DNA of 64,000 nt from a virus. The position numbers and the translations under genes were made by a program. How positions within the stretch are numbered: the first letter of the stretch is position 1; every line of letters starts with the position of its first letter. Shown here one piece after another: positions 5,033 through 54,547 of this stretch. The DNA lies in the IMG/VR virus record IMGVR_UViG_3300028610_000244, positions 1 to 64,000 of that record; one strand, written 5' to 3'. The notes below the pieces were generated by a model, which saw only the letters and a program-made list of their open reading frames with translations, was not told where the DNA came from and ran no database searches.

Positions 5033-5741
5033 TGAGATACCTCATGGTTTCATCTGTATGGCGTTCGGCGAGGAGCTGGTGCAAGGCACGGCTCGCCATG
5101 TAGTCGGCGAGGTGTACTGTTCGGACGACAGCGTCCATTTCCAGTATCGCCAACTCCACCTGCGTGACGTCGTTCGTCCAGCGGCCCATGTGCAACCTGA
5201 CGGCTGCAATCACAGGCTCTAGTTCTGGCATGATAGTGTAGTGTCCGGTAAGGAAGTCCGCACAGAATCGGCCGTGGTTCTGGTTGGCCTGCCTGTGTTC
5301 GTCCCAGGTGTCCAGCTCGTCCTCGGTGTGCCCGCGTTTCATCATGTCGTGCAGCAGGACGCCGGCTATTGTCTGCGAGTATTGAGGACTGCTGTCGTCT
5401 ATGCCCAGGGAGTCCAGAAGCTGATCGGCGAATGCAACCGCAAGCTTGACGTGATGCACCAACCCACCACGAGTCCGGCAGATCGGCGGGTGATGTCCCT
5501 TAACGCTCGCCGGGATCGTCCAGAAGTAGTCCGGGCAGCAGTTCTGGAACACCGAGACCACGAAGTTATATATGGTCGATTCTGTGATTAGGCTCAGCTC
5601 TTTACCGAGCACGTTGTGTACTGTTGGTTTCGCTTTCATTTCTCCTCCATCGAACCGGGAACATGTTTCGGTGCGGCCCGCAGCTATCGTGCAGCCTTGC
5701 GATTGTCGGGCACATAGGTCACATAGGTCTTGCTTGCTCAT
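5025..5741 (-). CDS. HD-domain phosphohydrolase (YhaM-like HD subfamily)
   Basis: PAS..HH, GGLVHH, LLHDMMK, HMGRW, VHLADY. Confidence 0.85.
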   Translation of the reverse strand: MSKQDLCDLCARQSQGCTIAAGRTETCSRFDGGEMKAKPTVHNVLGKELSLITESTIYNFVVSVFQNCCPDYFWTIPASVKGHHPPICRTRGGLVHHVKLAVAFADQLLDSLGIDDSSPQYSQTIAGVLLHDMMKRGHTEDELDTWDEHRQANQNHGRFCADFLTGHYTIMPELEPVIAAVRLHMGRWTNDVTQVELAILEMDAVVRTVHLADYMASRALHQLLAERHTDETMRYLND

Positions 5742-6802: not shown

Positions 6803-7996
6803 CTATCTGTGTACAGTATAGCACATGGAAAGAATCGTGTCAAGTGATTTTTCCTGCATCACCATATTTTGTAACTCGGCAACGCTTACGTCTTTGGTCA
6901 TTTGTCCTGGCGGCAGCTCGGTGTCGAAGAACGTCTGGGTGAATTGGTTCAGCGTTTCCGGTGTCACGTAGCCCAGGAATAGCTTTAGATCGACGCGGCC
7001 CGGACGCACCAGTGCCGGATCAAGTTTCTCGATGTGGTTCGTCGTCATAATGATGACGCGACCGTGACTCACCGCGATTCCGTCCAGAGTGTTTAGTATT
7101 TCACTGATCCCACCTTTAAGCATCAAGAAATCGCCCTTACTACTCTTATCTTTTTCTGCGTCTCTGTCGCCGGTGGCCTCGTTTGAGTCTACGTCCTCGA
7201 TAACAATGAGTTCCTTGTCTGTACCCAGCTCTGTTATCGTGCTGAGGTTGCTTGCCGGGACTACCGCTACGTCTTGATTCAGGTGTGCCGCTATTGCCCG
7301 GATCAATGATGTCTTGCCGGTTCCGGGAGGGCCATGCAGTAGTATGCCGAGCTGGTACGGGATTCCGTGCAGGATGTACCACTGCTCTTTCTCGCGGAAA
7401 TCCTTGAGCGTCTTTATCAGCTCGTCTTTATCTGCTGCCGGCATCAGGATCGAGTCCAGGTTCCGCTTCGGTTGCTTGATTAGGTTCCAATCTCCGTCGC
7501 CGGAGTGCATCTTTAGCTTCGTCATCTCACAGTTCTCGTCCGGGCACCGCAGATTGTGGAGGATAGCATCAAACAGCTTGTGAGACCGGCCGAGCTTAGA
7601 GAGTGTGATCTCCTCTTTGTCCCGATCCGCGACAGTGTCGATTCTGTCGAGGTCCACCAATATAGGGACATGTCCGTACCACATCAAGTGCTGGCCGTAA
7701 CCCACCGCCTTCGTAGAGAAGTCACCACCCCACCTTCCGTTAACGATCTTGATCCTGCGGAACTTCTTGCTGTATCCTTTACTCTCGAACCAATTCATCA
7801 GGACGTAATAGCTCTCGTTGTTGGACGTCATCGTCATGGATGTGGTCAAGTGCTTCTTCACAAGGGCGGCGACGTTGTATGGCACTTTCCTGAGCAGGTA
7901 CGTGACTATGCCTATCAACCAAGCAGATATGGCTGCGGCCATGAATTCATTTCCGCCCGTGATGTCGTTAATCTTCTGTAGCAGTTGTTCGATCAT
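6803..7996 (-). CDS. BCS1-like membrane-anchored AAA+ ATPase
   Basis: N-terminal TM helix, BCS1_N-like region, GIPYQLGILLHGPPGTGKTS, IEDVD, LNTLDG, MTTNH..LDPALVRPGRVD. Confidence 0.88.
   Translation of the reverse strand: MIEQLLQKINDITGGNEFMAAAISAWLIGIVTYLLRKVPYNVAALVKKHLTTSMTMTSNNESYYVLMNWFESKGYSKKFRRIKIVNGRWGGDFSTKAVGYGQHLMWYGHVPILVDLDRIDTVADRDKEEITLSKLGRSHKLFDAILHNLRCPDENCEMTKLKMHSGDGDWNLIKQPKRNLDSILMPAADKDELIKTLKDFREKEQWYILHGIPYQLGILLHGPPGTGKTSLIRAIAAHLNQDVAVVPASNLSTITELGTDKELIVIEDVDSNEATGDRDAEKDKSSKGDFLMLKGGISEILNTLDGIAVSHGRVIIMTTNHIEKLDPALVRPGRVDLKLFLGYVTPETLNQFTQTFFDTELPPGQMTKDVSVAELQNMVMQEKSLDTILSMCYTVHR
6815..6843 (-). promoter_or_regulatory. sigma70-type promoter
   Basis: TTGACA-17nt-TATACT on the minus strand. 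Confidence 0.75.
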
Positions 7997-8114
7997 TCTT
8001 ACCCTTCCTGCACATCATCTCTATCTGAGTTAGCAACCCATCCTAGTACGTATCCGAAGTATGCAAATCCAAGGCAAAGTAACAGACACCAATTTATACT
8101 AATCATTTGCTCTC

Positions 8115-10101: not shown

Positions 10102-10130
10102 AGTATAGCACAACTGGGATCAGGTGTCAA
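10102..10130 (-). promoter_or_regulatory. sigma70-type promoter
   Basis: TTGACA-17nt-TATACT; flanks (GTGCTATACTGTACA) identical to the promoter at 6815. Confidence 0.8.
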
Positions 10131-10162: not shown

Positions 10163-10710
10163 TTATCGGATGTTGTATTGGTTTGAACGAATGGCAAGGC
10201 TCCAGGGTTTGAAATCGTTTGAAAAATTTTGAGATTTGAAAAGCTCTTGGCTTGAGGACGTGCGGGTAGGAGCGGCCCGTCCGATAATAGCATGGGGAAA
10301 GGCCCCGTCCCAGCGGTTATTATCGGACGTTGATGCACGATTTTCGCAGCACAATGCACGATGTTATCGGACGTCAGGCAGCACAGGTTATCGGACCAAG
10401 GCAGGGCGGCTCACGTTATCGGACGTAGGTTATCGGACGTCGTTATTATCGGACCACACCACGTCCGATAACTGAGCGTGACATAACAGGGATTATCGGA
10501 CCAACGTTATCGGACCTCTCTAGGCTCTAGTCCGATAATAAAATCCGGGCTCAACAAACGTCCGATAAGAAGCACGTCCGATAATGTTACGAGGTGCTAC
10601 TGAGTGACGTCCGATAACATATCTGGCGATCAGATACGCATGGTCCGATAATGTTTGCGTGTGCATAGGGAGGAGGTCCGATAATCCGGGGCAGAATTAT
10701 CGGACCGATG
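10163..10710. repeat. array of TTATCGGAC 9-mers in both orientations (left array)
   Basis: About 18 copies by eye (e.g. 10320, 10364, 10388, 10416, 10430, 10446, 10493, 10507; reverse at 10463, 10530, 10560, 10576, 10609, 10643, 10676); no credible ORF. Confidence 0.92.
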
Positions 10711-10754
10711 AGATGATAAGCTGGTAGGTTAAGCCAGCGGTAGGTTATAGGACG

Positions 10755-11999
10755 TCAATAGTATTCGCGTCGGTTGCCGTCCGCGTCGTATCCGTTAGCG
10801 TCAAGCCGGACAACGTCGGACATTGCATAGATTGCCGTATCGTCCGGCAACTGGTTTGCGGCAAACGTGTAAAGGATTGCCGCGAATAATTCCGCGTCGG
10901 TTGTATCGCCTTGCCAATTCTTGCCGATGCTGTTTTCATCGGTTGCATTGTCGGCGAATTCGATATCGTTCGCAAGATCGGCGTCGGCATAGACGACAAC
11001 ATTATAAATATTCAAGTGACTAATTACGTCGGCATTTGCGGCAAGCCAATTTAGTGTCCGGCTATATGTCTCTTGCGTTTCATCAGGCAAACCGATTAGA
11101 ATGTTAGGTATTAGCTTGACATTGCATCGCCTAAGCTTTTCGGTTGCCGCGTCGATTGTCTTTTCCGATGCTGGCTTGTGCATCGCGGCAAGTATAGCGT
11201 CGTTATATGTCTCTATTCCCAATTCGACATAACGAATTCCAGACGCGGACAAAAAATCATCGTCAAGTTTTAGCAATTGTGTTGCTGTAGTCTGCACAAT
11301 AAATCCGTCGAATCCGTCCATGTTGTCAACAAAGTATTGAGACAATAGCGGCAACAACCAAAAATTCTCACATTGTCCGAACGTCTTATCGTTTATGTAG
11401 ACAAGCGGACTATTTAGCCGGGCTATTTCGTCCGCTTGCTGATAGACGTCGGCGATTGACGTCTTGACTACGTCGTTCGGCTGTATACAGAATCGGCACT
11501 TGTGCCCGCAACCAGTAGACAACGTCAATCTTGCAATCGTTTTGGCACCAACAAAACTGGAATAGTCAATACCCGTCCGATAATCAGTGCCGAGCTTATC
11601 GCAGCAATCCCGCACAGAATCGCACCAAATAACGTTCGGTAGGTCCGATAAGTTTTCCCGGTCACAATATCCGCCGACAATCACCTTGCCGCTAAAACCG
11701 TCGGCAATCGTTCGGATTAAATGCCAATTGCAATCCAAAGCGGAAAATGCAAGGATATCATAGTCGGCCTGTTTGGCTTGTACGTCGGCGATTGACCGGG
11801 CAAACGTTGTCCGTGCATCGGGAAAATTGCGTTTCATTTCCGCTTGCCAAACAGGAATTTCCCAGACAGGACCGAGGCGATTATATCCCGGCAACGTCCG
11901 ATAAAGTTTATCGTAATATTCGGTTGCCTGTTTGTTCTCGTTTCGGTTTAGCAATCCGCTATAAAATTGCACCAACAGAATTTTCGGTCTTGTTCTCAT
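10755..11999 (-). CDS. radical SAM protein (B12-binding/class B-like architecture)
   Basis: STGCGHKCRFC (CxxxCxxC), YINDKTF, ELGIET, ILIGLPDET, upstream IVGG; start at MRTRPK after the conserved leader. Confidence 0.88.
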   Translation of the reverse strand: MRTRPKILLVQFYSGLLNRNENKQATEYYDKLYRTLPGYNRLGPVWEIPVWQAEMKRNFPDARTTFARSIADVQAKQADYDILAFSALDCNWHLIRTIADGFSGKVIVGGYCDRENLSDLPNVIWCDSVRDCCDKLGTDYRTGIDYSSFVGAKTIARLTLSTGCGHKCRFCIQPNDVVKTSIADVYQQADEIARLNSPLVYINDKTFGQCENFWLLPLLSQYFVDNMDGFDGFIVQTTATQLLKLDDDFLSASGIRYVELGIETYNDAILAAMHKPASEKTIDAATEKLRRCNVKLIPNILIGLPDETQETYSRTLNWLAANADVISHLNIYNVVVYADADLANDIEFADNATDENSIGKNWQGDTTDAELFAAILYTFAANQLPDDTAIYAMSDVVRLDANGYDADGNRREYY

Positions 12000-12429
12000 T
12001 TCTCTTGTCCCCGTTTTGCTCTTGTTCGGTTTACGTTTTGCGTTATGGCGTCCGTCTGGTCTCGTGTTGGACATTCACAAGACGCCATAACACAAACGGT
12101 AAACTTGTGGGGACAAGTTAGCTATTCTTGTCTGCCGGTTTGCGTTTGTTTCCTTTTGCCGTCAATCCGTTTTGGTTTTTCGCCGTTATGTTTCCGTATC
12201 CGTCTTTTGTTGCATTTGCCGCGTCGAAATTTCTGTTTTGCTTGTCCATTTTGGTTTGTCCCCGTAAATTGTTTCGGTTTGCTAAGCTAACAAAGTGCGA
12301 CGTATGCCGCAATACTGATAATAATTACCGGATACCATTTTGTTTTCCAAGCTTTATACTTTTCGATTAGAGTATACATTTTTGTTTTCCCCGTTTGTTC
12401 TTGCCGTTTGCTTGTCCCTCACTACTTAA

Positions 12430-12457
12430 AGTATACACTATATCCGGCAAGATGCAA
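12430..12457 (-). promoter_or_regulatory. phage repeated promoter (TTTGCAT class)
   Basis: TTGCAT-16nt-TATACTTTAAG with AT-rich upstream element. Confidence 0.8.
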
Positions 12458-12471
12458 ATAGAAAATAAAAT

Positions 12472-13104
12472 TTATTCTTGCATAAAGGCAAAACAAGGCG
12501 TTTCACAAAAGATCGACCTGTATACCGACACAAAGCTTTTCGGATTCTTGCCGGATTCTCGCCGTATCGCATACCATAGTAAAGCCTGATAATTTGCTGG
12601 CTTTAAGCCTTGCCGTTTGGCGTCGGCCTGTATTCGCTTTTCTAGTCGGTTGTATAGCCTTGCCGTCAATTTCTTTTCTGGTATGCCATACGCTTGCAAA
12701 ATCCATGTGTCAATTGTGACCGCGTCAAGATTGCCTTTTAGATTCTCGGCAAACCGCGAAACCTTGGGACCGCTTATCGGACGTCCTTGTAGCGACCGAA
12801 TAACGTTTGTTAAATGTGCGGGCATACACTTAGCCAACAGATCGGCGAAACGGTCCGGGTTTAGTTTCCTGTCGATATACGCTTGCAATAGCCTTGCCGA
12901 TTGACGCCAATTGCGTTTGACGGATTGACGCGGCGATGTTGACGCCAAAATGTCAACAAACAGACGCCAATTGTCCCCGTATAATTCTTGTATCAAGTTT
13001 TTGGCGTCTGTATACCATTGCAAGGCTTTTCTATCCGCGACGTCTGGCTTGACGCGGCAGCGTAGTCTTATGTTATCGGACGTCGTTTTCGTTTTGGTTC
13101 TCAT
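12472..13104 (-). CDS. HhH DNA-glycosylase-fold-like phage protein
   Basis: WY...LASTSPRQSVKRN, GPKVSRFAENL, VTIDTW, QALLW pattern; start at MRTKTK after the conserved leader. Confidence 0.55.
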   Translation of the reverse strand: MRTKTKTTSDNIRLRCRVKPDVADRKALQWYTDAKNLIQELYGDNWRLFVDILASTSPRQSVKRNWRQSARLLQAYIDRKLNPDRFADLLAKCMPAHLTNVIRSLQGRPISGPKVSRFAENLKGNLDAVTIDTWILQAYGIPEKKLTARLYNRLEKRIQADAKRQGLKPANYQALLWYAIRRESGKNPKSFVSVYRSIFCETPCFAFMQE

Positions 13105-13372
13105 TGTCGTTTGTCCCCGTCCCCGTTTTGTCGTCGAAATGTTGCTGTATTGTGTCCCAAAGATTTTCGAGAAATTCGTTTTTGTCCGCGTCGTATTGCT
13201 CGTAACCGTTATCGGACCCGTGTTCGACGTCTGGATATAGCGGCAAAATCTCGGCATTATAGCGTTTGTACTCATCGGCCAAAAATGCCATTAAATCGGA
13301 TTGACGTTTTCCCTTGTTTGTATGGTCAATTGGATTGCCGAGTTTAACATCGGCGTAGTTTTTGTCAGACAT
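13073..13372 (-). CDS. hypothetical acidic protein
   Basis: Island ORF; shares the island codon bias. Confidence 0.6.
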   Translation of the reverse strand: MSDKNYADVKLGNPIDHTNKGKRQSDLMAFLADEYKRYNAEILPLYPDVEHGSDNGYEQYDADKNEFLENLWDTIQQHFDDKTGTGTNDNENQNENDVR

Positions 13373-13382
13373 TATCGGCCCC

Positions 13383-13532
13383 TTAATTGTCCTGCATTAC
13401 ACGAATTGCATCGGCAAAATTCTTTTCGGTTTGCTGGCTTACTTTGTTGGCGAATTTGACCGCTTGCGATACCAAAACCAGATAAAAAATTACAATCAAC
13501 ATGCCGCCGATTAGATAAGATTTAATGCTCAT
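13383..13532 (-). CDS. small single-TM protein
   Basis: MSIKSYLIGGMLIVIFYLVLV hydrophobic stretch; follows promoter and conserved leader. Confidence 0.6.
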   Translation of the reverse strand: MSIKSYLIGGMLIVIFYLVLVSQAVKFANKVSQQTEKNFADAIRVMQDN

Positions 13533-13584
13533 TTTTCTTGTCCCCGTTTTGCTCTTGTTCGTTTGCTTGTCCCTCACTACTTAA

Positions 13585-13612
13585 AGTATACGCTATAATT
13601 CCGCCGATGCAA
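13585..13612 (-). promoter_or_regulatory. phage repeated promoter (TTTGCAT class)
   Basis: TTGCAT-16nt-TATACTTTAAG. Confidence 0.8.
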
Positions 13613-13615
13613 ATT

Positions 13616-13789
13616 TTATTTCCAAGGAAATAATCTTTTTTCGTGTTTCTTCCATGCAAACAACAAAGCAAACCTTTTCCGGCTAAAATCGGTTTGTGGT
13701 GAAACACCTAAACTTTCTATATCGGTGCCGAGTTGCCTGATTCTCTTGTCTATTCTTGCCGCTATTTTTTCCGCTTTCTTGATTCTCAT
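13616..13789 (-). CDS. small basic protein (57 aa, not in ORF track)
   Basis: MRIKKAEKIAARIDKR... directly follows the conserved ACGGGGACAAGAAAA leader. Confidence 0.55.
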   Translation of the reverse strand: MRIKKAEKIAARIDKRIRQLGTDIESLGVSPQTDFSRKRFALLFAWKKHEKRLFPWK

Positions 13790-13982
13790 TTTTCTTGTCC
13801 CCGTTTTGCTTTACTTAAATATTCCGGCACTGGCTTTTGAATTCCGCAATTTTGTTGGCTTTGTGGTACGCAAAATCCGCATTGCATCGGCAAAACCTTT
13901 TGCAGAGCTGGTAGATTTTGACGAACCACATGTTAGCAGCATCGACAACAAGCTTTTCTTACGTCCCATAATATCCTCCGCA

Positions 13983-14312
13983 CTATATGTTTTCCGTTAT
14001 GCAAATAGAATCTGGCATAATTACGCAATTCTCGGCATAAAATTTGACTTGATCGGCAGCGTCCGATAATGTTTCAAACGTGTGCGTTTCCGCTTGTCCA
14101 TTTACTGCAATAATCAATTCGTATGTTTTCCGCCGTTTTAATGGTATGGTCAATCGGCGTTTTGATTCGCAAGCCAATACTTTCAGACGTCCGCCGTGCA
14201 TTTTCTCAAAACGTCCGATAACTGTTATCGGGTCTTTTTCCCTTGTGCAATATGTTGTTGTGCCGGTCGTTCGGCGTTTGTCGTTTCTCTCATAATCTAT
14301 TTTGTATCTCAT
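13983..14312 (-). CDS. hypothetical protein (first gene of the island)
   Basis: Follows promoter 14355-14382 and the conserved leader. Confidence 0.65.
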   Translation of the reverse strand: MRYKIDYERNDKRRTTGTTTYCTREKDPITVIGRFEKMHGGRLKVLACESKRRLTIPLKRRKTYELIIAVNGQAETHTFETLSDAADQVKFYAENCVIMPDSICITENI

Positions 14313-14354
14313 TTGCCTTGTCCCCGTTTTGCTCTTGTTCGTTTCACTACTGAA

Positions 14355-14382
14355 AGTATACGCTACAATTCAGCCGATGCAA
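14355..14382 (-). promoter_or_regulatory. phage repeated promoter (TTTGCAT class)
   Basis: TTGCAT-16nt-TATACTTTCAG. Confidence 0.78.
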
Positions 14383-14470
14383 ATAGAAAATAAAATTTAT
14401 TTTGCGTTTGGCGTCGGCGGTTTTGTGTCGTATGCTTTGCGTATACGATGATATTTTGTGGACGCTTTAC

Positions 14471-14918
14471 GTCCGATAATAATCGGCGGGCTTTTTCCCG
14501 CGACGTCCGATAAGGACCACGTCCGATAAGGAGGGCGGTCTACCTACTCGGAATTCGTCCGATAACGGCACGAGGTCCAGGTCCGATAAAAAATATATTA
14601 TCGGCGGAACTGCCGGGTCCGATAAGTGTCTAAAGTAATGGCACTGGAGGCAAAAGCATGTGACTTATCGGCGTGGTCCGATAATATCGAGATCGCGGAA
14701 TTCTGCGGCGGCGGTTATTATCGGACGAGGCCAATAATGTCGCGGGTTCTGCGTCGTGAGGCCAGGGATTACCGGACGTGTCCGATAATATCGAAACTGG
14801 TCTCTGAACCGGAATTGGATATTATCGGCAGCGTCCGGTAATGTGTCCAGGCTGGTTATCGGACGCTGTGGAGAAAATCAGTTATCGGACGTGTGGGAGC
14901 TGGTTAGTTTTATCGGAC
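14471..14918. repeat. array of TTATCGGAC 9-mers in both orientations (right array)
   Basis: About 12 perfect plus about 5 near-perfect copies by eye; non-coding. Confidence 0.92.
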
Positions 14919-14926
14919 CAAAGGTC

Positions 14927-15063
14927 CAACCCACCGTTTACTTTTGGGCACGAAAAAGGCAACCCACCGTTTAGTTTTGGTCGAAAAAGGCAACCCACCC
15001 TTTGATTTTTGCCTCGAAAAAGGCAACCCACCGTTCATTTATTTTCCTTGAGTCCAACCCACC
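14927..15063 (+). repeat. five phased CAACCCACC direct repeats (iteron-like)
   Basis: Copies at 14927, 14960, 14991, 15024, 15055 (spacing 33/31/33/31) separated by A/T tracts; AT-rich stretch follows at about 15280-15520. Confidence 0.88.
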
Positions 15064-15555
15064 CTTTGTTTCAAGGTAATGTCACTAGGCCCCAGGTCAA
15101 GCAAATGTCACTCTATATGTCACCACCTTCGCCCAGGATTCAAGTGCTCTGAGTTTTTGAGACAGCGGCCAAAGTATAGGGCGGCGGGAGATTTCGACCC
15201 TCTTTGTCATGCCCTCGGACAATGCCCAGGAAAGTTGCTGGCACCGGCCATAAGTTGTAAAAGGTGTCGATGAGTAAGTCCTGGTTATTACTACCCTTAG
15301 TATTCTTTTCATATTATACATATTAAATTTATAGTTTGAGTCTAAAGAAATTTGACTATCTGTGACGTCCTGGGTATGAGAAATGTTAAGAATATGGTGA
15401 AACACTATGTTCTTCATGTTATTAAACCTAAGCCCAATGTCACTCAACACTTGTATGGTAGCACCTTTTACCAGTTCAAAACCGTATGAATATGTTCCTG
15501 AATATCTAACTCTAGTCCTCATAGTGACTTGCTCCCAGACGTCGCCAACAACTTT

Positions 15556-17803: not shown

Positions 17804-18364
17804 TTACTGCCTCCGCCCACTAAATGCACATATCTTGCATCCTTCTGTATACAGGCACGCTTTACAGACAGCACAGCCGCAGCCTCCACAGGTGAACAGC
17901 TCCTGCTTCGCCATGCACGAGACGCAACGCTTGTTAGTGTCCGGCGTGCCCTGCTCGGCTACAAACTTGTCACGGTGCCTGAGCATGAATTCCTTCTCGC
18001 ATTCAGGTTTGAAATGAAACAGCTCAACAGCCACCTGATAGTGTAGATAGATTGCCAGATTCTTCACACCACGGTCCGGGTGATGATACGCCAGCACCGC
18101 GAACGAATCCGCCAAATGATGCACGTAATGCACGGGCAGATATTCGGCCTCATCCATTGCCGCATCAATCACGTCGGATGTCATCTCGATATCCTTCATG
18201 TATGACTGCTTCGCCGGGTCCGCGTTGATCTGGCACTGAGCCCGCAGCCATCGCACACATTTCTTAACCGCCACAGTGTTTTGGTCCGGTGCTCGAAAGC
18301 CCGACAACAGAATCGACTGCATCTTGCAGCCCACGTCACGTACCCATTCTTGTAGCACAAACAT
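17804..18364 (-). CDS. hypothetical protein with Cys-rich C-terminal zinc finger
   Basis: CxxC...CxxC...CxxC...CxxC tail. Confidence 0.65.
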   Translation of the reverse strand: MFVLQEWVRDVGCKMQSILLSGFRAPDQNTVAVKKCVRWLRAQCQINADPAKQSYMKDIEMTSDVIDAAMDEAEYLPVHYVHHLADSFAVLAYHHPDRGVKNLAIYLHYQVAVELFHFKPECEKEFMLRHRDKFVAEQGTPDTNKRCVSCMAKQELFTCGGCGCAVCKACLYTEGCKICAFSGRRQ

Positions 18365-18723
18365 TATAGCGTCCCCTGATTGTCTTTAATGTATTCACGT
18401 ATGTCACGCAGTCTCAGCAGGCTCACGATCTCCCGCTGTCCGCTAAAGGTTTCCAGGCACCAGAACGGGGCGACCCGGCGGATTCGGTATGCTCTCCCGG
18501 TTGGGCCGTTCCAATGATACCGGCCACGGCGTCTACGAAGCACAACGACAGCCTTGCAGCCGCTCATCGCAACGTGTGTCACTGACTCGCTCTTCAACGG
18601 ACAGTCAAAGTGATGCTCAAGCCGGGACATCCAGCCCTTTGCACCGCAACAGGCACAGAAGCCAGCCTGATGTCCGCCGTGGTCGCTAGTGGTAATCAAC
18701 ATCTCTTGCCTGCTTCGCATCAT
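18364..18723 (-). CDS. CxxC-HxxxC zinc-finger paralog 1
   Basis: CACC...HHFDCPL; HWNGPTGRAY. Confidence 0.65.
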   Translation of the reverse strand: MMRSRQEMLITTSDHGGHQAGFCACCGAKGWMSRLEHHFDCPLKSESVTHVAMSGCKAVVVLRRRRGRYHWNGPTGRAYRIRRVAPFWCLETFSGQREIVSLLRLRDIREYIKDNQGTL

Positions 18724-53746: not shown

Positions 53747-54547
53747 TTATTGAAAGATGCGAATACGTAGCTCCGCATCAAGTCTGTTGAGTGGCGTGGC
53801 AAAGCCCATAGAGGCTGTGCTGTTTAGTCGGGCTATTATGATGCCGGCGACCTTTCCATCTACTATGGCAGGTCCGCCGCTGCATCCACCCCAAGCAAAA
53901 CCGTCGTAGACAAATTTATTTTTCCAGTTTTCACTTGACACGCGAGCCCAAGTTATGATAAGCTGGGGCTCGTCGCCGAATGGCGTGCCTATGCAAATGA
54001 CCTCAGCACCAAGAACAGGAGACGGACCCATATCCAACCACGGCCCACATCGGCCTTCTATAATGACCAGGGCTAGATCGTCATTGAAGTCCTCAAGAAC
54101 CTCTACGGCTCTATACTCTACGCCGTCAGGTCCGGTAACGAAGACGGTCTCATCCGCTATTCGGTCATCCACTACGTGCTTCGCAGTAAGCAGCTTATTA
54201 TCGGACACAAAGACGCCGGTGCCCCGTGTCGGTCCACGGAATACAGTTATCGGACCATTTTGTCTCGGCTTCTGCATGACCCGGAGAGTGGCCGAGCTTG
54301 ACCGTAATCGTAGAAGGTCCAACCCACCGTTTGCAGAACCCAACCCACCGTCTGTTAGGTCCAACCCACCCTCCGTAGAACCCAACCCACCCTTGAGCTG
54401 AGCGATCCTGTTGTGCAGAGAATCCAACCCACCCTCTTGCATGTGGTTCCAATGTCGCAGGCTGACTAAGTCACTCTCTTGGCGGTTGCACAAGAAGACT
54501 GTTAATCCAAGTGTCACGGTAAGCAAGATGTTTGTCAGTGTCTTCAT
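53747..54547 (-). CDS. trypsin-like serine protease with N-terminal TM/signal
   Basis: GTGVFV, LTAKHVV, DLALV, GCSGGP; start MKTLTN. Confidence 0.88.
   Translation of the reverse strand: MKTLTNILLTVTLGLTVFLCNRQESDLVSLRHWNHMQEGGLDSLHNRIAQLKGGLGSTEGGLDLTDGGLGSANGGLDLLRLRSSSATLRVMQKPRQNGPITVFRGPTRGTGVFVSDNKLLTAKHVVDDRIADETVFVTGPDGVEYRAVEVLEDFNDDLALVIIEGRCGPWLDMGPSPVLGAEVICIGTPFGDEPQLIITWARVSSENWKNKFVYDGFAWGGCSGGPAIVDGKVAGIIIARLNSTASMGFATPLNRLDAELRIRIFQ
54320..54433 (+). repeat. five phased CAACCCACC repeats inside the protease gene
   Basis: Copies at 54320, 54341, 54362, 54383, 54425 (spacing 21/21/21/42); encode GGL. Confidence 0.88.

What the first reader, a model, noticed from the sequence alone, without database searches (positions are those of the whole stretch)
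10745..14460. 3.7-kb island purged of GAAG/GAGG so strictly that protein sequence is reshaped
Seen: by eye I find one CTTC/GAAG (13649) in about 3.7 kb, where about 29 are expected for a random 4-mer on two strands. I find only about 4 CCTC/GAGG (three outside coding sequence), no CCWGG and no TGTCAC, although all are abundant in the flanks. In six island proteins, none of about 44 internal Glu residues is followed by A, D, E, G or V, the pairs that force GAAG or GAGG. If about 30% of codons start with G, the chance is roughly 1e-7. The radical SAM protein also has far more Asp than Glu. Depletion on both strands points to selection at the DNA level. Established: T5 first-step-transfer DNA and T7 early-entering DNA carry anti-defence genes that are expressed before the rest of the genome enters. 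Inference: this is first-injected or terminal-repeat DNA evading asymmetric-site restriction (type IIS/IIG/III, BREX, DISARM) until its products protect the genome.
Basis: partly seen in the sequence, partly recalled or inferred. Interest (0 to 1): 0.85.

Follow-up and report, generated by a model that had tools for sequence, protein, structure and literature searches.

The report
Phage early-gene island purged of GAAG
A 4.5-kb cassette of early genes in an uncultured 98-kb phage has been kept almost free of the four-letter DNA word GAAG (and GGAG) on both strands, at the cost of changed codons, protein sequences and ribosome-binding sites. The likeliest reason is that this stretch must survive a DNA-cutting enzyme without protection.

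Summary
Between 10570 and 15126 there is one GAAG/CTTC, against 22-56 expected. The best-fitting purged word is GRAG: 2 copies in 10673-14529, against 30 (Markov) to 73 (genome density). No other window of that size holds fewer than 53.

The purge covers both strands, non-coding DNA, synonymous codons, amino-acid order (0 of 47 Glu followed by A/D/E/G/V) and ribosome-binding sites.

It is not recent horizontal transfer. A relative (L075) carries the island at the same place with similarly diverged flanks. More than 100 homologues of two island proteins share the Glu-pair depletion.

The genome has no detectable DNA methyltransferase. It lacks GCGC, CTGAAG and 41 of 64 palindromic hexamers outright, so site avoidance is its general defence.

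The island has three consensus sigma-70 promoters, island-only GGGGACAA leaders, and a radical SAM enzyme with a DNA-glycosylase-fold protein. Arrays of TTATCGGAC boxes bracket it, and such arrays recur in unrelated phages.

The T5 A1-like operon lies 55 kb away and is not purged.

Verdict: a real feature under DNA-level selection, and a new variant of leading-region or early-region site avoidance. The selecting agent is unknown.

The parts
10570..15126 (.). Zone with a single GAAG/CTTC (at 13649). It also contains the CCWGG-free (10202-14577) and TGTCAC-free (10478-15080) stretches, has G+C of 0.44 against 0.52, and a low AG/CT dinucleotide ratio (0.62).
10673..14529 (.). Core zone with only 2 GRAG/CTYC: 13649 in gene g3, and 13976, which is the GGAGG ribosome-binding site of g2.
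14927..15054 (.). Four to five direct repeats (about 31-33 bp period, CAACCCACC core) at the upstream edge of the island.
14471..14918 (.). Upstream (right) array of about 12 TTATCGGAC boxes in both orientations. Some form units spaced 51-53 bp apart.
14355..14383 (-). Promoter P1 (TTGCAT, 16-17 nt spacer, TATACT) with an A/T-rich upstream tract.
13983..14312 (-). g1, 109 aa, no family match. Preceded by a GGGGACAA leader.
13811..13969 (-). g2, 52 aa, basic. The only island gene that keeps a GGAGG ribosome-binding site. It has a homologue in L075.
13616..13789 (-). g3, 57 aa. Holds the single surviving GAAG (sense strand, Trp-Lys-Lys).
13585..13613 (-). Promoter P2, same class as P1.
13383..13532 (-). 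g4, 49 aa, hydrophobic (probably a membrane protein). Homologues in L075 and L208.
13073..13372 (-). g5, 99 aa, strongly acidic (about 22 Asp+Glu against 10 Lys+Arg, counted from the translation). No family match.
12472..13104 (-). g6, 210 aa, DUF7178. The predicted fold is that of HhH-GPD DNA glycosylases.
12430..12458 (-). Promoter P3, same class as P1.
12287..12379 (-). g7, 30 aa, hydrophobic.
12118..12249 (-). g8, 43 aa. 79% identical in L074 and L075.
10755..11999 (-). g9, 414 aa radical SAM enzyme: an N-terminal Rossmann-like domain plus the radical SAM core with a CxxxCxxC motif. It is the last gene of the island.
10271..10705 (.). Downstream (left) array of about 17 TTATCGGAC boxes. 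Eight further boxes lie inside the island's coding sequence.
10102..10130 (-). Strong promoter (11 of 12 consensus positions, TG-extended) that restarts transcription of the conserved genes downstream of the island.

Best explanation
The island is a conserved but cargo-variable early-gene cassette of a virulent-type siphovirus. This phage defends its DNA by lacking cutting sites rather than by modifying them.

Six-letter sites, and the four-letter site GCGC, have been removed from the whole 98-kb genome. A frequent asymmetric four-letter word such as GAAG/GGAG (about 18 per kb) cannot be removed genome-wide, so it has been removed only from the stretch where a cut is fatal.

That stretch is read at once by the host RNA polymerase from three consensus promoters. 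It is exposed to a nuclease that recognises this short word (a type III, IIS or IIG restriction enzyme, or another defence with a short asymmetric site) before the phage's countermeasures act.

The box arrays at both borders are protein-binding sites, probably for a host factor because unrelated phages carry the same 9-mer. They mark off the cassette and may hold or pause it, as the DnaA-box arrays are proposed to do at the T5 injection stop.

Shown: the purge, its DNA-level nature, its age, the promoters, the arrays and the genome-wide avoidance. Inferred: that a nuclease is the selecting agent, that the island is exposed earlier or longer than the rest, and what the arrays do.
For: 1. The purge is extreme and local: 2 GRAG against 30-73 expected, and every other window of the same size has at least 53.

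2. It acts on DNA. Both strands, 1.37 kb of non-coding DNA (0 against 10.6), synonymous sites (1 against 14.0 +/- 3.2) and amino-acid order (0 of 47 Glu pairs) are affected. Ribosome-binding sites are affected too: GGGGACAA occurs 8 times in the 64-kb window, all in the island, and 6 of them lie just upstream of start codons. So are promoters: copies of the TTGCAT class outside the island carry CCTGG after the -35 element, and the island copies do not.

3. The phage uses site avoidance everywhere. GCGC is 0 against 251, CTGAAG 0 against 52, and 41 of 64 palindromic hexamers are absent. No methyltransferase, TGT/DpdA or ThyA homologue was found.

4. It is not recent transfer. L075 has the island at the same place, with flanks 52-80% identical and the island's radical SAM enzyme 70% identical.

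5. Selection is long-lasting. Radical SAM homologues of the 17-member clade have 17 Glu-[ADEGV] pairs against about 92 expected, apart from two separate leaves that regained normal levels. About 104 DUF7178 homologues have 66 against 210.

6. Relatives show partial GAAG depletion in their islands: L075 15 against 25 (Markov), G002 9 against 20, and a 5.5-kb zone in L076.

7. The cargo varies between relatives while the flanks are conserved, as the literature describes for leading or anti-defence regions (PMC12455610).

8. Published precedents: T5 is restricted by EcoRI, and hit by CRISPR, only through sites in its first-step-transfer DNA, which also carries untranslated arrays of host DnaA boxes (bioRxiv 10.1101/866236). 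A Type I motif in the leading region alone decides the sensitivity of Autographiviridae (PMC12455610).
Against: - There is no evidence on which DNA enters first.
- The 144-bp end overlap lies beside the terminase genes, 10-15 kb from the island. DNA between that point and the island has normal GAAG density.
- The T5 A1-like operon (69.3-72.3 kb) is neither in the island nor purged.
- Nine other promoters of the same class drive genes with normal GAAG density, so early transcription alone does not explain the purge.
- The same word is avoided across a clade diverged to 55-70% protein identity. That is unusually stable for host restriction specificities, although the genome-wide avoided set is equally stable.
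- I know of no restriction enzyme with the site GAAG or GRAG (from memory, not checked).
- Islands bracketed by the same boxes in other phages are not generally purged.
Confidence: 0.42

Rival explanations
1. Self-immunity. The avoided word is the target of the phage's own early DNA-acting enzyme. Candidates are the island's glycosylase-fold protein with the radical SAM enzyme, or the A1-like nuclease, used to wreck or mark host DNA. The cassette that is present and active while the enzyme works must not carry the target. This is what Davison proposed for T5 first-step-transfer DNA and A1.
For: - The avoided word is constant across a large clade that also keeps the two enzymes.
- DUF7178 has a DNA-glycosylase fold: Z 11.8 to the Thermotoga Ogg, and Z 6-8 to many HhH-GPD enzymes.
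- DUF7178 recurs next to the radical SAM gene in 18 of 160 loci.
- GRAG density in the radical SAM gene relative to distal flanks has a median of 0.67 in loci with DUF7178 and 0.95 overall.
- L075 has a truncated DUF7178 and a relaxed purge.
- Davison's hypothesis for T5 is the direct analogue.
Against: - The other 1,790 GRAG sites of the phage genome would be hit too. No modification system was found and two-step entry is unproven.
- HhH-GPD glycosylases recognise damaged bases, not four-letter words (established knowledge).
- The A1 operon itself is full of GAAG.
- One homologue pair contradicts the link: radical SAM homologue P0016 has normal Glu pairs although DUF7178 is present on its contig.
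- G002 has DUF7178 but only a partial purge.
Confidence: 0.2
2. RNA-level or translation-level selection. The island's messengers avoid GGAG, GAAG and GAGG because these resemble ribosome-binding sites or are cut by a sequence-specific endoribonuclease, as T4 RegB cuts GGAG in early messages. The DNA-level appearance would then be secondary.
For: - Most of the expected sites are on the sense strand: 2 observed against 23 (Markov) or 50 (density).
- The surviving GGAG is a ribosome-binding site, and the other genes use a GGGG-type leader.
- In relatives, in-frame Glu pairs are the best-kept part of the bias.
- RegB specificity for GGAG is established knowledge, cited from memory.
Against: - The antisense strand has 0 sites against 6.2-24 expected.
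- Non-coding DNA inside the zone, much of it the box arrays outside the genes, has 0 GAAG/CTTC against 10.6.
- CCWGG and other unrelated words are missing as well.
- GAAG is not complementary to the anti-Shine-Dalgarno sequence.
Confidence: 0.1
3. A composition relic. The island was acquired from a donor with a different oligonucleotide signature, or it is shaped by a local mutational bias, and the missing word is a by-product.
For: The island has lower G+C (0.44 against 0.52), very different codon usage (for example Phe TTT 77% against 27%), and altered dinucleotide ratios (AG/CT 0.62, CG 1.55).
Against: - The island is syntenic and as diverged as its flanks in L075.
- The trinucleotides GAA and AAG are nearly normal (0.84, 0.89) while GAAG is absent.
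- Shuffles that keep the island's own codon usage still give 14 +/- 3.2 against 1 observed.
- Two lineages regained normal Glu pairs within the same divergence while the others did not.
Confidence: 0.04

Closest known systems
Phage T5 first-step-transfer (pre-early) DNA and its insensitivity to restriction (Davison; bioRxiv 10.1101/866236)
   Same: - A few kb of early genes read by host polymerase from strong promoters.
- Large untranslated arrays of repeated protein-binding boxes at the borders.
- Restriction sites (EcoRI) and CRISPR targets matter only inside this segment, which naturally lacks them.
- This phage also has a homologue of T5 A1 (phrog_1745, E 1e-159).
   Different: - The A1/dmp-like operon is 55 kb from the island and is not purged.
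- The boxes are TTATCGGAC, not DnaA boxes.
- No long terminal repeat or two-step entry is shown.
- The head and packaging genes resemble PaMx11/YuA-type Pseudomonas phages, not T5.
- The avoided word has four letters, so proteins had to change.
Leading-region motif avoidance in Autographiviridae (Murciavirus against Type I system Mme2I; PMC12455610) and the T7 early region
   Same: - Presence or absence of a restriction motif in the first-injected, highly variable, anti-defence-rich region alone decides the outcome.
- The cargo varies between relatives.
   Different: - Those cases involve one or a few bipartite Type I sites in a known leading end.
- Here a frequent four-letter word is missing from 4.5 kb whose entry order is unknown.
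Genome-wide restriction-site (palindrome) avoidance in phages
   Same: The same genome shows it in extreme form: GCGC, CTGAAG and 41 of 64 palindromic hexamers are absent.
   Different: The GAAG/GRAG purge is confined to 4.6% of the genome and concerns an asymmetric word.
T4 RegB endoribonuclease, which inactivates early messages at GGAG (from memory)
   Same: A purine-rich four-letter word tied to early genes and ribosome-binding sites.
   Different: RegB acts on RNA. Here the antisense strand and non-coding DNA are purged too.

Membership tests
T5-type first-step-transfer / leading DNA | The segment is at a physical end of virion DNA and enters the cell first. | not testable with these tools
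Only a 144-bp end overlap of the assembly is known.
T5-type first-step-transfer / leading DNA | Restriction-type words that are common elsewhere in the genome are missing locally. | tested here: met
   GRAG 2 against 30-73; CCWGG 0 in 4.4 kb.
T5-type first-step-transfer / leading DNA | The segment carries the A1/A2/dmp pre-early genes. | tested here: not met
   The A1 homologue lies at 69295-70905, with a dmp-like nucleotidase beside it. None is in the island.
T5-type first-step-transfer / leading DNA | Untranslated arrays of host-factor boxes at the border (injection stop signal). | tested here: inconclusive
   Dense box arrays exist at both borders and the same 9-mer recurs in unrelated phages. 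The binding protein is unknown, and these are not DnaA boxes.
Radical SAM superfamily (PF04055) | Pfam score above the curated cut-off, and a CxxxCxxC cluster motif. | tested here: met
   41.3 bits against 29.5. C163, C167 and C170 are invariant in 26 homologues. Fold matches to AprD4, MgmA, MiaB, RimO and TsrM at E 1e-15 to 1e-12.
Methylthiotransferases (MiaB/RimO) | A second N-terminal cluster domain and a C-terminal TRAM domain. | not tested
   Only overall fold similarity was seen. Domain-specific motifs were not examined.
DUF7178 (PF23802) | Pfam score above the curated cut-off. | tested here: met
   51.4 bits against 27; phrog_3842 at 3e-15.
HhH-GPD DNA glycosylases | The two-domain helical fold with a helix-hairpin-helix. 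| tested here: met
   Model pLDDT 86.8. VIA Z 11.8, 163 residues, rmsd 3.6 to 3n0u, followed by a long run of glycosylases at Z 6-8. Foldseek E-values are weak, about 0.1.
HhH-GPD DNA glycosylases | The catalytic Asp (and Lys in bifunctional enzymes) in the GPD loop. | not tested
   Residue-level superposition was not done. Invariant D132 and K114 are candidates only.
Recently transferred genomic island | Absent from the same site in relatives, or much less diverged than its flanks. | tested here: not met
   L075 is syntenic through the island and both flanks.

The most novel reading that the evidence does not exclude
The island marks a widespread, undescribed phage device. An early cassette is fenced by arrays of one host-factor box (TTATCGGAC). 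It is held apart from the rest of the chromosome, by paused entry or by a nucleoprotein coat, while a four-letter-specific DNA-acting enzyme is at work. That enzyme could be a new kind of host defence or the phage's own weapon, built from a glycosylase-fold protein and a radical SAM enzyme. If so, the purge directly reveals the specificity (GRAG) of an enzyme nobody has characterised.
Probability: 0.2. Interest if true: 0.85.

Novelty: new variant of a known kind. Interest (0 to 1): 0.66.

Why it matters
Region-limited site avoidance is known from only a few model phages and a few sites. Here it is strong enough to rewrite codons, protein sequence, promoters and ribosome-binding sites, and it has held across more than 100 metagenomic relatives.

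It gives three testable handles:
- It predicts a nuclease or defence that recognises a short asymmetric word (GAAG/GRAG).
- It marks which 4.5 kb of an uncultured phage is the vulnerable part.
- It points to a conserved enzyme pair (radical SAM plus glycosylase fold) and a conserved 9-bp box as parts of an early counter-defence or takeover module.

The same genome is also one of the most extreme cases of palindrome avoidance I know of (from memory, not checked against the literature).

Tried and rejected
- Nucleotide search of the island in GenBank phages found no match. A protein search for the radical SAM enzyme there also found none.
- A single-protein search of viral contigs for the radical SAM enzyme found nothing. 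An alignment-based search was needed.
Only L074, L075 and L077 gave close DNA.
- I tested whether radical SAM genes in other phages generally lie in 4-mer gaps. Seven of about 17 top gaps overlap the gene, against about 5 expected. This is not significant and I dropped it.
- I tested whether the gene lies near contig ends. There is mild enrichment on both sides, explained by short contigs.
- Thymidine hypermodification was considered, because the structural neighbours include PaMx11 gp46. There are no homologues of PaMx11 gp46-gp53 and no ThyA family hit.
- CRISPR PAM avoidance was rejected: AAG and TTC trinucleotides are near normal.
- A general link between box-bracketed islands and GAAG loss was tested. 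CTTC ranks 8th to 117th among depleted 4-mers in 19 loci, so it is not general. In the unrelated phage G001 the drop is mostly compositional: 19 against 31.6 by Markov.
- An Rfam scan of the island found nothing.
- PHROG and Pfam scans of the small genes found nothing.
- A literature search for PaMx11 genome ends was uninformative, and a search for DUF7178 found no paper.

Full report
**What the window is.** The window is the first 64 kb of a 97,868-bp IMG/VR virus record. The record has a 144-bp end overlap and is rated complete.

Almost all genes lie on the minus strand. In transcription order (descending coordinates) the genome runs as follows:
- terminase, portal, scaffold, capsid and tail genes (96 to 72.6 kb);
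- an operon with a homologue of the T5 A1 'DNA transfer protein', a dmp-like nucleotidase and a pyrophosphohydrolase (72.3 to 69.3 kb);
- helicases, DNA polymerase A and primase (67.6 to 56.6 kb);
- RtcB, ligase and many small genes (54 to 16 kb);
- the island (15.1 to 10.2 kb);
- AAA ATPases and a clamp-loader-like protein (8 to 0.1 kb).

Terminase and primase are about 50% identical to the PaMx11/Ab18/YuA group of Pseudomonas siphoviruses. No cultured phage matches at the DNA level.

**The observation.** GAAG/CTTC occurs 1,152 times in the genome, about one per 85 bp. Between 10569 and 15127 it occurs once, at 13649. This is the highest-scoring 4-mer gap in the genome, and the next-ranked gaps (GGAG, GGTG, GTGG) fall in the same place.

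For these 4,557 nt the expected counts are 22 (Markov, from the island's own trinucleotides), 36 (base composition) and 56 (rest-of-genome density). GAA and AAG themselves are nearly normal (0.84 and 0.89 of the genome frequency).

A scan with degenerate words shows that GRAG/CTYC fits best (score 56). Nearly all top word-gaps of the genome lie in the island. In 10673-14529 only two GRAG remain: one in g3 and the GGAGG ribosome-binding site of g2. The Markov expectation is 29.6 (P 7e-11). No other window of that size holds fewer than 53.

**Level of selection.** The nine island genes hold one site. Shuffling synonymous codons, which keeps the proteins and the island's own codon usage, gives 14.0 +/- 3.2. 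Shuffling codon order gives 24.0 +/- 4.2. Back-translation with the genome's codon usage gives 31.4 +/- 4.9. So both codon choice and amino-acid order have been shaped. None of 47 Glu residues is followed by A, D, E, G or V, against 34% elsewhere.

The antisense strand has 0 sites, against 6.2 (Markov) or 24 (density). The 1.37 kb of non-coding DNA has 0 GAAG/CTTC against 10.6.

Translation signals were re-tooled. GGGGACAA occurs eight times in the 64-kb window, all in the island. Six of these lie just upstream of start codons, in place of GGAG/GAGG-type sites.

Promoters were re-tooled as well. Twelve promoters of one class (TTGCAT, 16-17 nt, TATACT) lie between 12.4 and 53.6 kb. Five of the nine outside the island carry CCTGG right after the -35 element, and the three island copies do not. 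This matches the absence of CCWGG from 10202-14577.

Taken together, the evidence indicates that the target of selection is the double-stranded DNA word. A purely RNA-level reading is weakened most by the antisense and non-coding results.

**Not a recent import.** Metagenome contig L075 carries a radical SAM enzyme 70% identical to that of the window. It is collinear with the window through the upstream repeats, right box array, island, left box array and 10 kb of downstream genes. The flanks are 52-80% identical at protein level. L075 has the same 9-bp boxes, the same leader and the same low G+C. The island is therefore ancestral to the lineage.

Its cargo varies. g1, g3, g5 and g7 have no counterpart in L075, which has other small genes and a truncated DUF7178.

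**Age of the bias.** Among radical SAM homologues, the 17-member clade around the window (59-72% identity) has 17 Glu-[ADEGV] pairs against about 92 expected. Two leaves in different sub-clades (P0007, P0016) have normal numbers. The sister clade is mostly normal. About 104 DUF7178 homologues (56-83% identity) have 66 pairs against 210 expected. Because two lineages re-equilibrated within the same divergence, I infer that the bias is actively maintained in the others.

At the DNA level the relatives are only partly depleted:
- L075: 15 GAAG against 25 (Markov) or 43 (flank density), mostly out of frame.
- G002/L208: 9 against 20.
- L076: a 5.5-kb zone with about three-fold fewer sites.

The window's phage is the strict extreme of a clade-wide tendency.

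**Genome-wide context.** The whole genome has no GCGC (251 expected), no CTGAAG (52) and no AGATCC/GGATCT (44). CTAG is three-fold low, and 41 of the 64 palindromic hexamers have no copy at all. The same set is depleted in L074 and L075.

No N6/N4, C5 or Dam-type methyltransferase, TGT/DpdA or thymidylate-synthase homologue was found. The same search did find the radical SAM gene. The phage therefore relies on not having sites. A word present 18 times per kb cannot be purged from 98 kb, so a purge confined to 4.5 kb implies that only this stretch is at risk.

**Anatomy and cargo.** From the upstream side the island contains:
- four to five 31-33-bp direct repeats;
- about a dozen TTATCGGAC boxes;
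- promoter P1 with g1-g3;
- P2 with g4 (hydrophobic), g5 (99 aa, strongly acidic) and g6;
- P3 with g7, g8 and g9;
- about 17 more boxes;
- a strong promoter for the conserved downstream genes.

Eight further boxes sit inside coding sequence. Thirty-seven of the genome's 44 boxes lie between 10.2 and 14.9 kb.

g9 is a radical SAM enzyme with an N-terminal Rossmann-like domain. Its nearest structures are AprD4, MgmA, MiaB/RimO, TsrM and CysS.

g6 (DUF7178) is predicted with confidence (pLDDT 87) to have the HhH-GPD DNA-glycosylase fold. VIA gives Z 11.8 to the Thermotoga Ogg, followed by Mag1, OGG1, AGOG, EndoIII, MutY and AlkA at Z 6-8. g6 accompanies the radical SAM gene in 18 of 160 loci. 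In cluster-A mycobacteriophages it lies 1-2 kb from the right genome end on the leftward strand. This pair probably acts on nucleic acid, but its function is unknown.

**The boxes elsewhere.** A scan of viral contigs for two boxes close together returned at least 117 stretches, and 57 of them hold four or more boxes. Several have two arrays 2.4-6 kb apart.

One is a complete 55-kb phage (G001). It shares only two small genes with this genome. Its arrays bracket a low-G+C block that opens with a near-consensus promoter. An identical 9-mer in unrelated phages suggests a host-encoded binding protein (inference).

GAAG loss is not a general property of such islands.

**Interpretation.** The best-supported reading is region-limited avoidance of a short asymmetric nuclease site in a cassette that is exposed without protection. 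This is the logic shown for T5 first-step-transfer DNA and for the leading region of Autographiviridae.

What I could not show is that the island enters first. The T5-like A1 operon lies elsewhere and is not purged. The only end signal lies 10-15 kb away. Other early promoters drive unpurged genes.

The constancy of the word across the clade keeps a second reading alive: that the island must be immune to a phage-encoded enzyme, as Davison proposed for T5 A1. The RNA-level and composition-relic readings are weak.

**Limits.** I had DNA from only a few close relatives and no read evidence. The statements about known restriction specificities and about RegB come from memory.

Noticed in passing
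whole genome (window 1-64000 plus L161, L162): Extreme site avoidance. GCGC is 0 (251 expected), CTGAAG/CTTCAG 0 (52) and AGATCC/GGATCT 0 (44). CTAG is three-fold low, and 41 of 64 palindromic hexamers have no copy. The same set is depleted in relatives L074 and L075. No DNA methyltransferase was detected.
   Followed up: partly
L165-L281 (viral contigs); G001 12484-12573 and 18287-18532; G002 5045-5474 and 7889-8081: Arrays of the same 9-bp box (TTATCGGAC) occur in many viral contigs, some of them unrelated; 57 loci have four or more boxes. The arrays often come in pairs 2.4-6 kb apart that bracket a low-G+C block opening with a consensus promoter. This suggests a host-factor binding site.
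   Followed up: partly
window 12005-14325: GGGGACAA occurs 8 times in the 64-kb window, all in the island. Six of them lie just upstream of start codons, so this looks like an island-specific ribosome-binding leader free of GGAG/GAGG.
   Followed up: partly
window 12430-53619, minus strand: A family of 12 promoters (TTGCAT, 16-17 nt spacer, TATACT). Five copies outside the island read TTGCATCCTGG, and the three island copies lack the CCTGG.
   Followed up: partly
window and rest of genome: TGTCAC/GTGACA is over-represented (219 against 144 by Markov; 125 on the plus strand of the window) but absent from 10478-15080.
   Followed up: no
L161 5295-8268 (genome 69295-72268): An operon directly after the tail genes, behind its own promoter. 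It holds a T5 A1-like 'DNA transfer protein' (phrog_1745, 1e-159), a 5'-3' deoxyribonucleotidase-like protein and a dATP/dGTP pyrophosphohydrolase-like protein. Two of its small genes are the only genes shared with the unrelated phage G001.
   Followed up: partly
window 14927-15054 and about 54198-54433: CAACCCACC-core direct repeats next to TTATCGGAC boxes occur twice in the genome. The boxes at 54198 and 54247 were confirmed. The second copy lies inside a protease-like gene.
   Followed up: partly
window 13073-13372, minus strand: g5 is a 99-aa protein with about 22 acidic and 10 basic residues and no family match. Its size and charge recall DNA-mimic anti-restriction proteins. This was not tested.
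   Followed up: no
Mycobacterium cluster-A phages (e.g. NC_042036 45565-46086): Distant DUF7178 homologues lie 1-2 kb from the right genome end on the leftward strand. Some records annotate them as 'glycosylase'.
   Followed up: no
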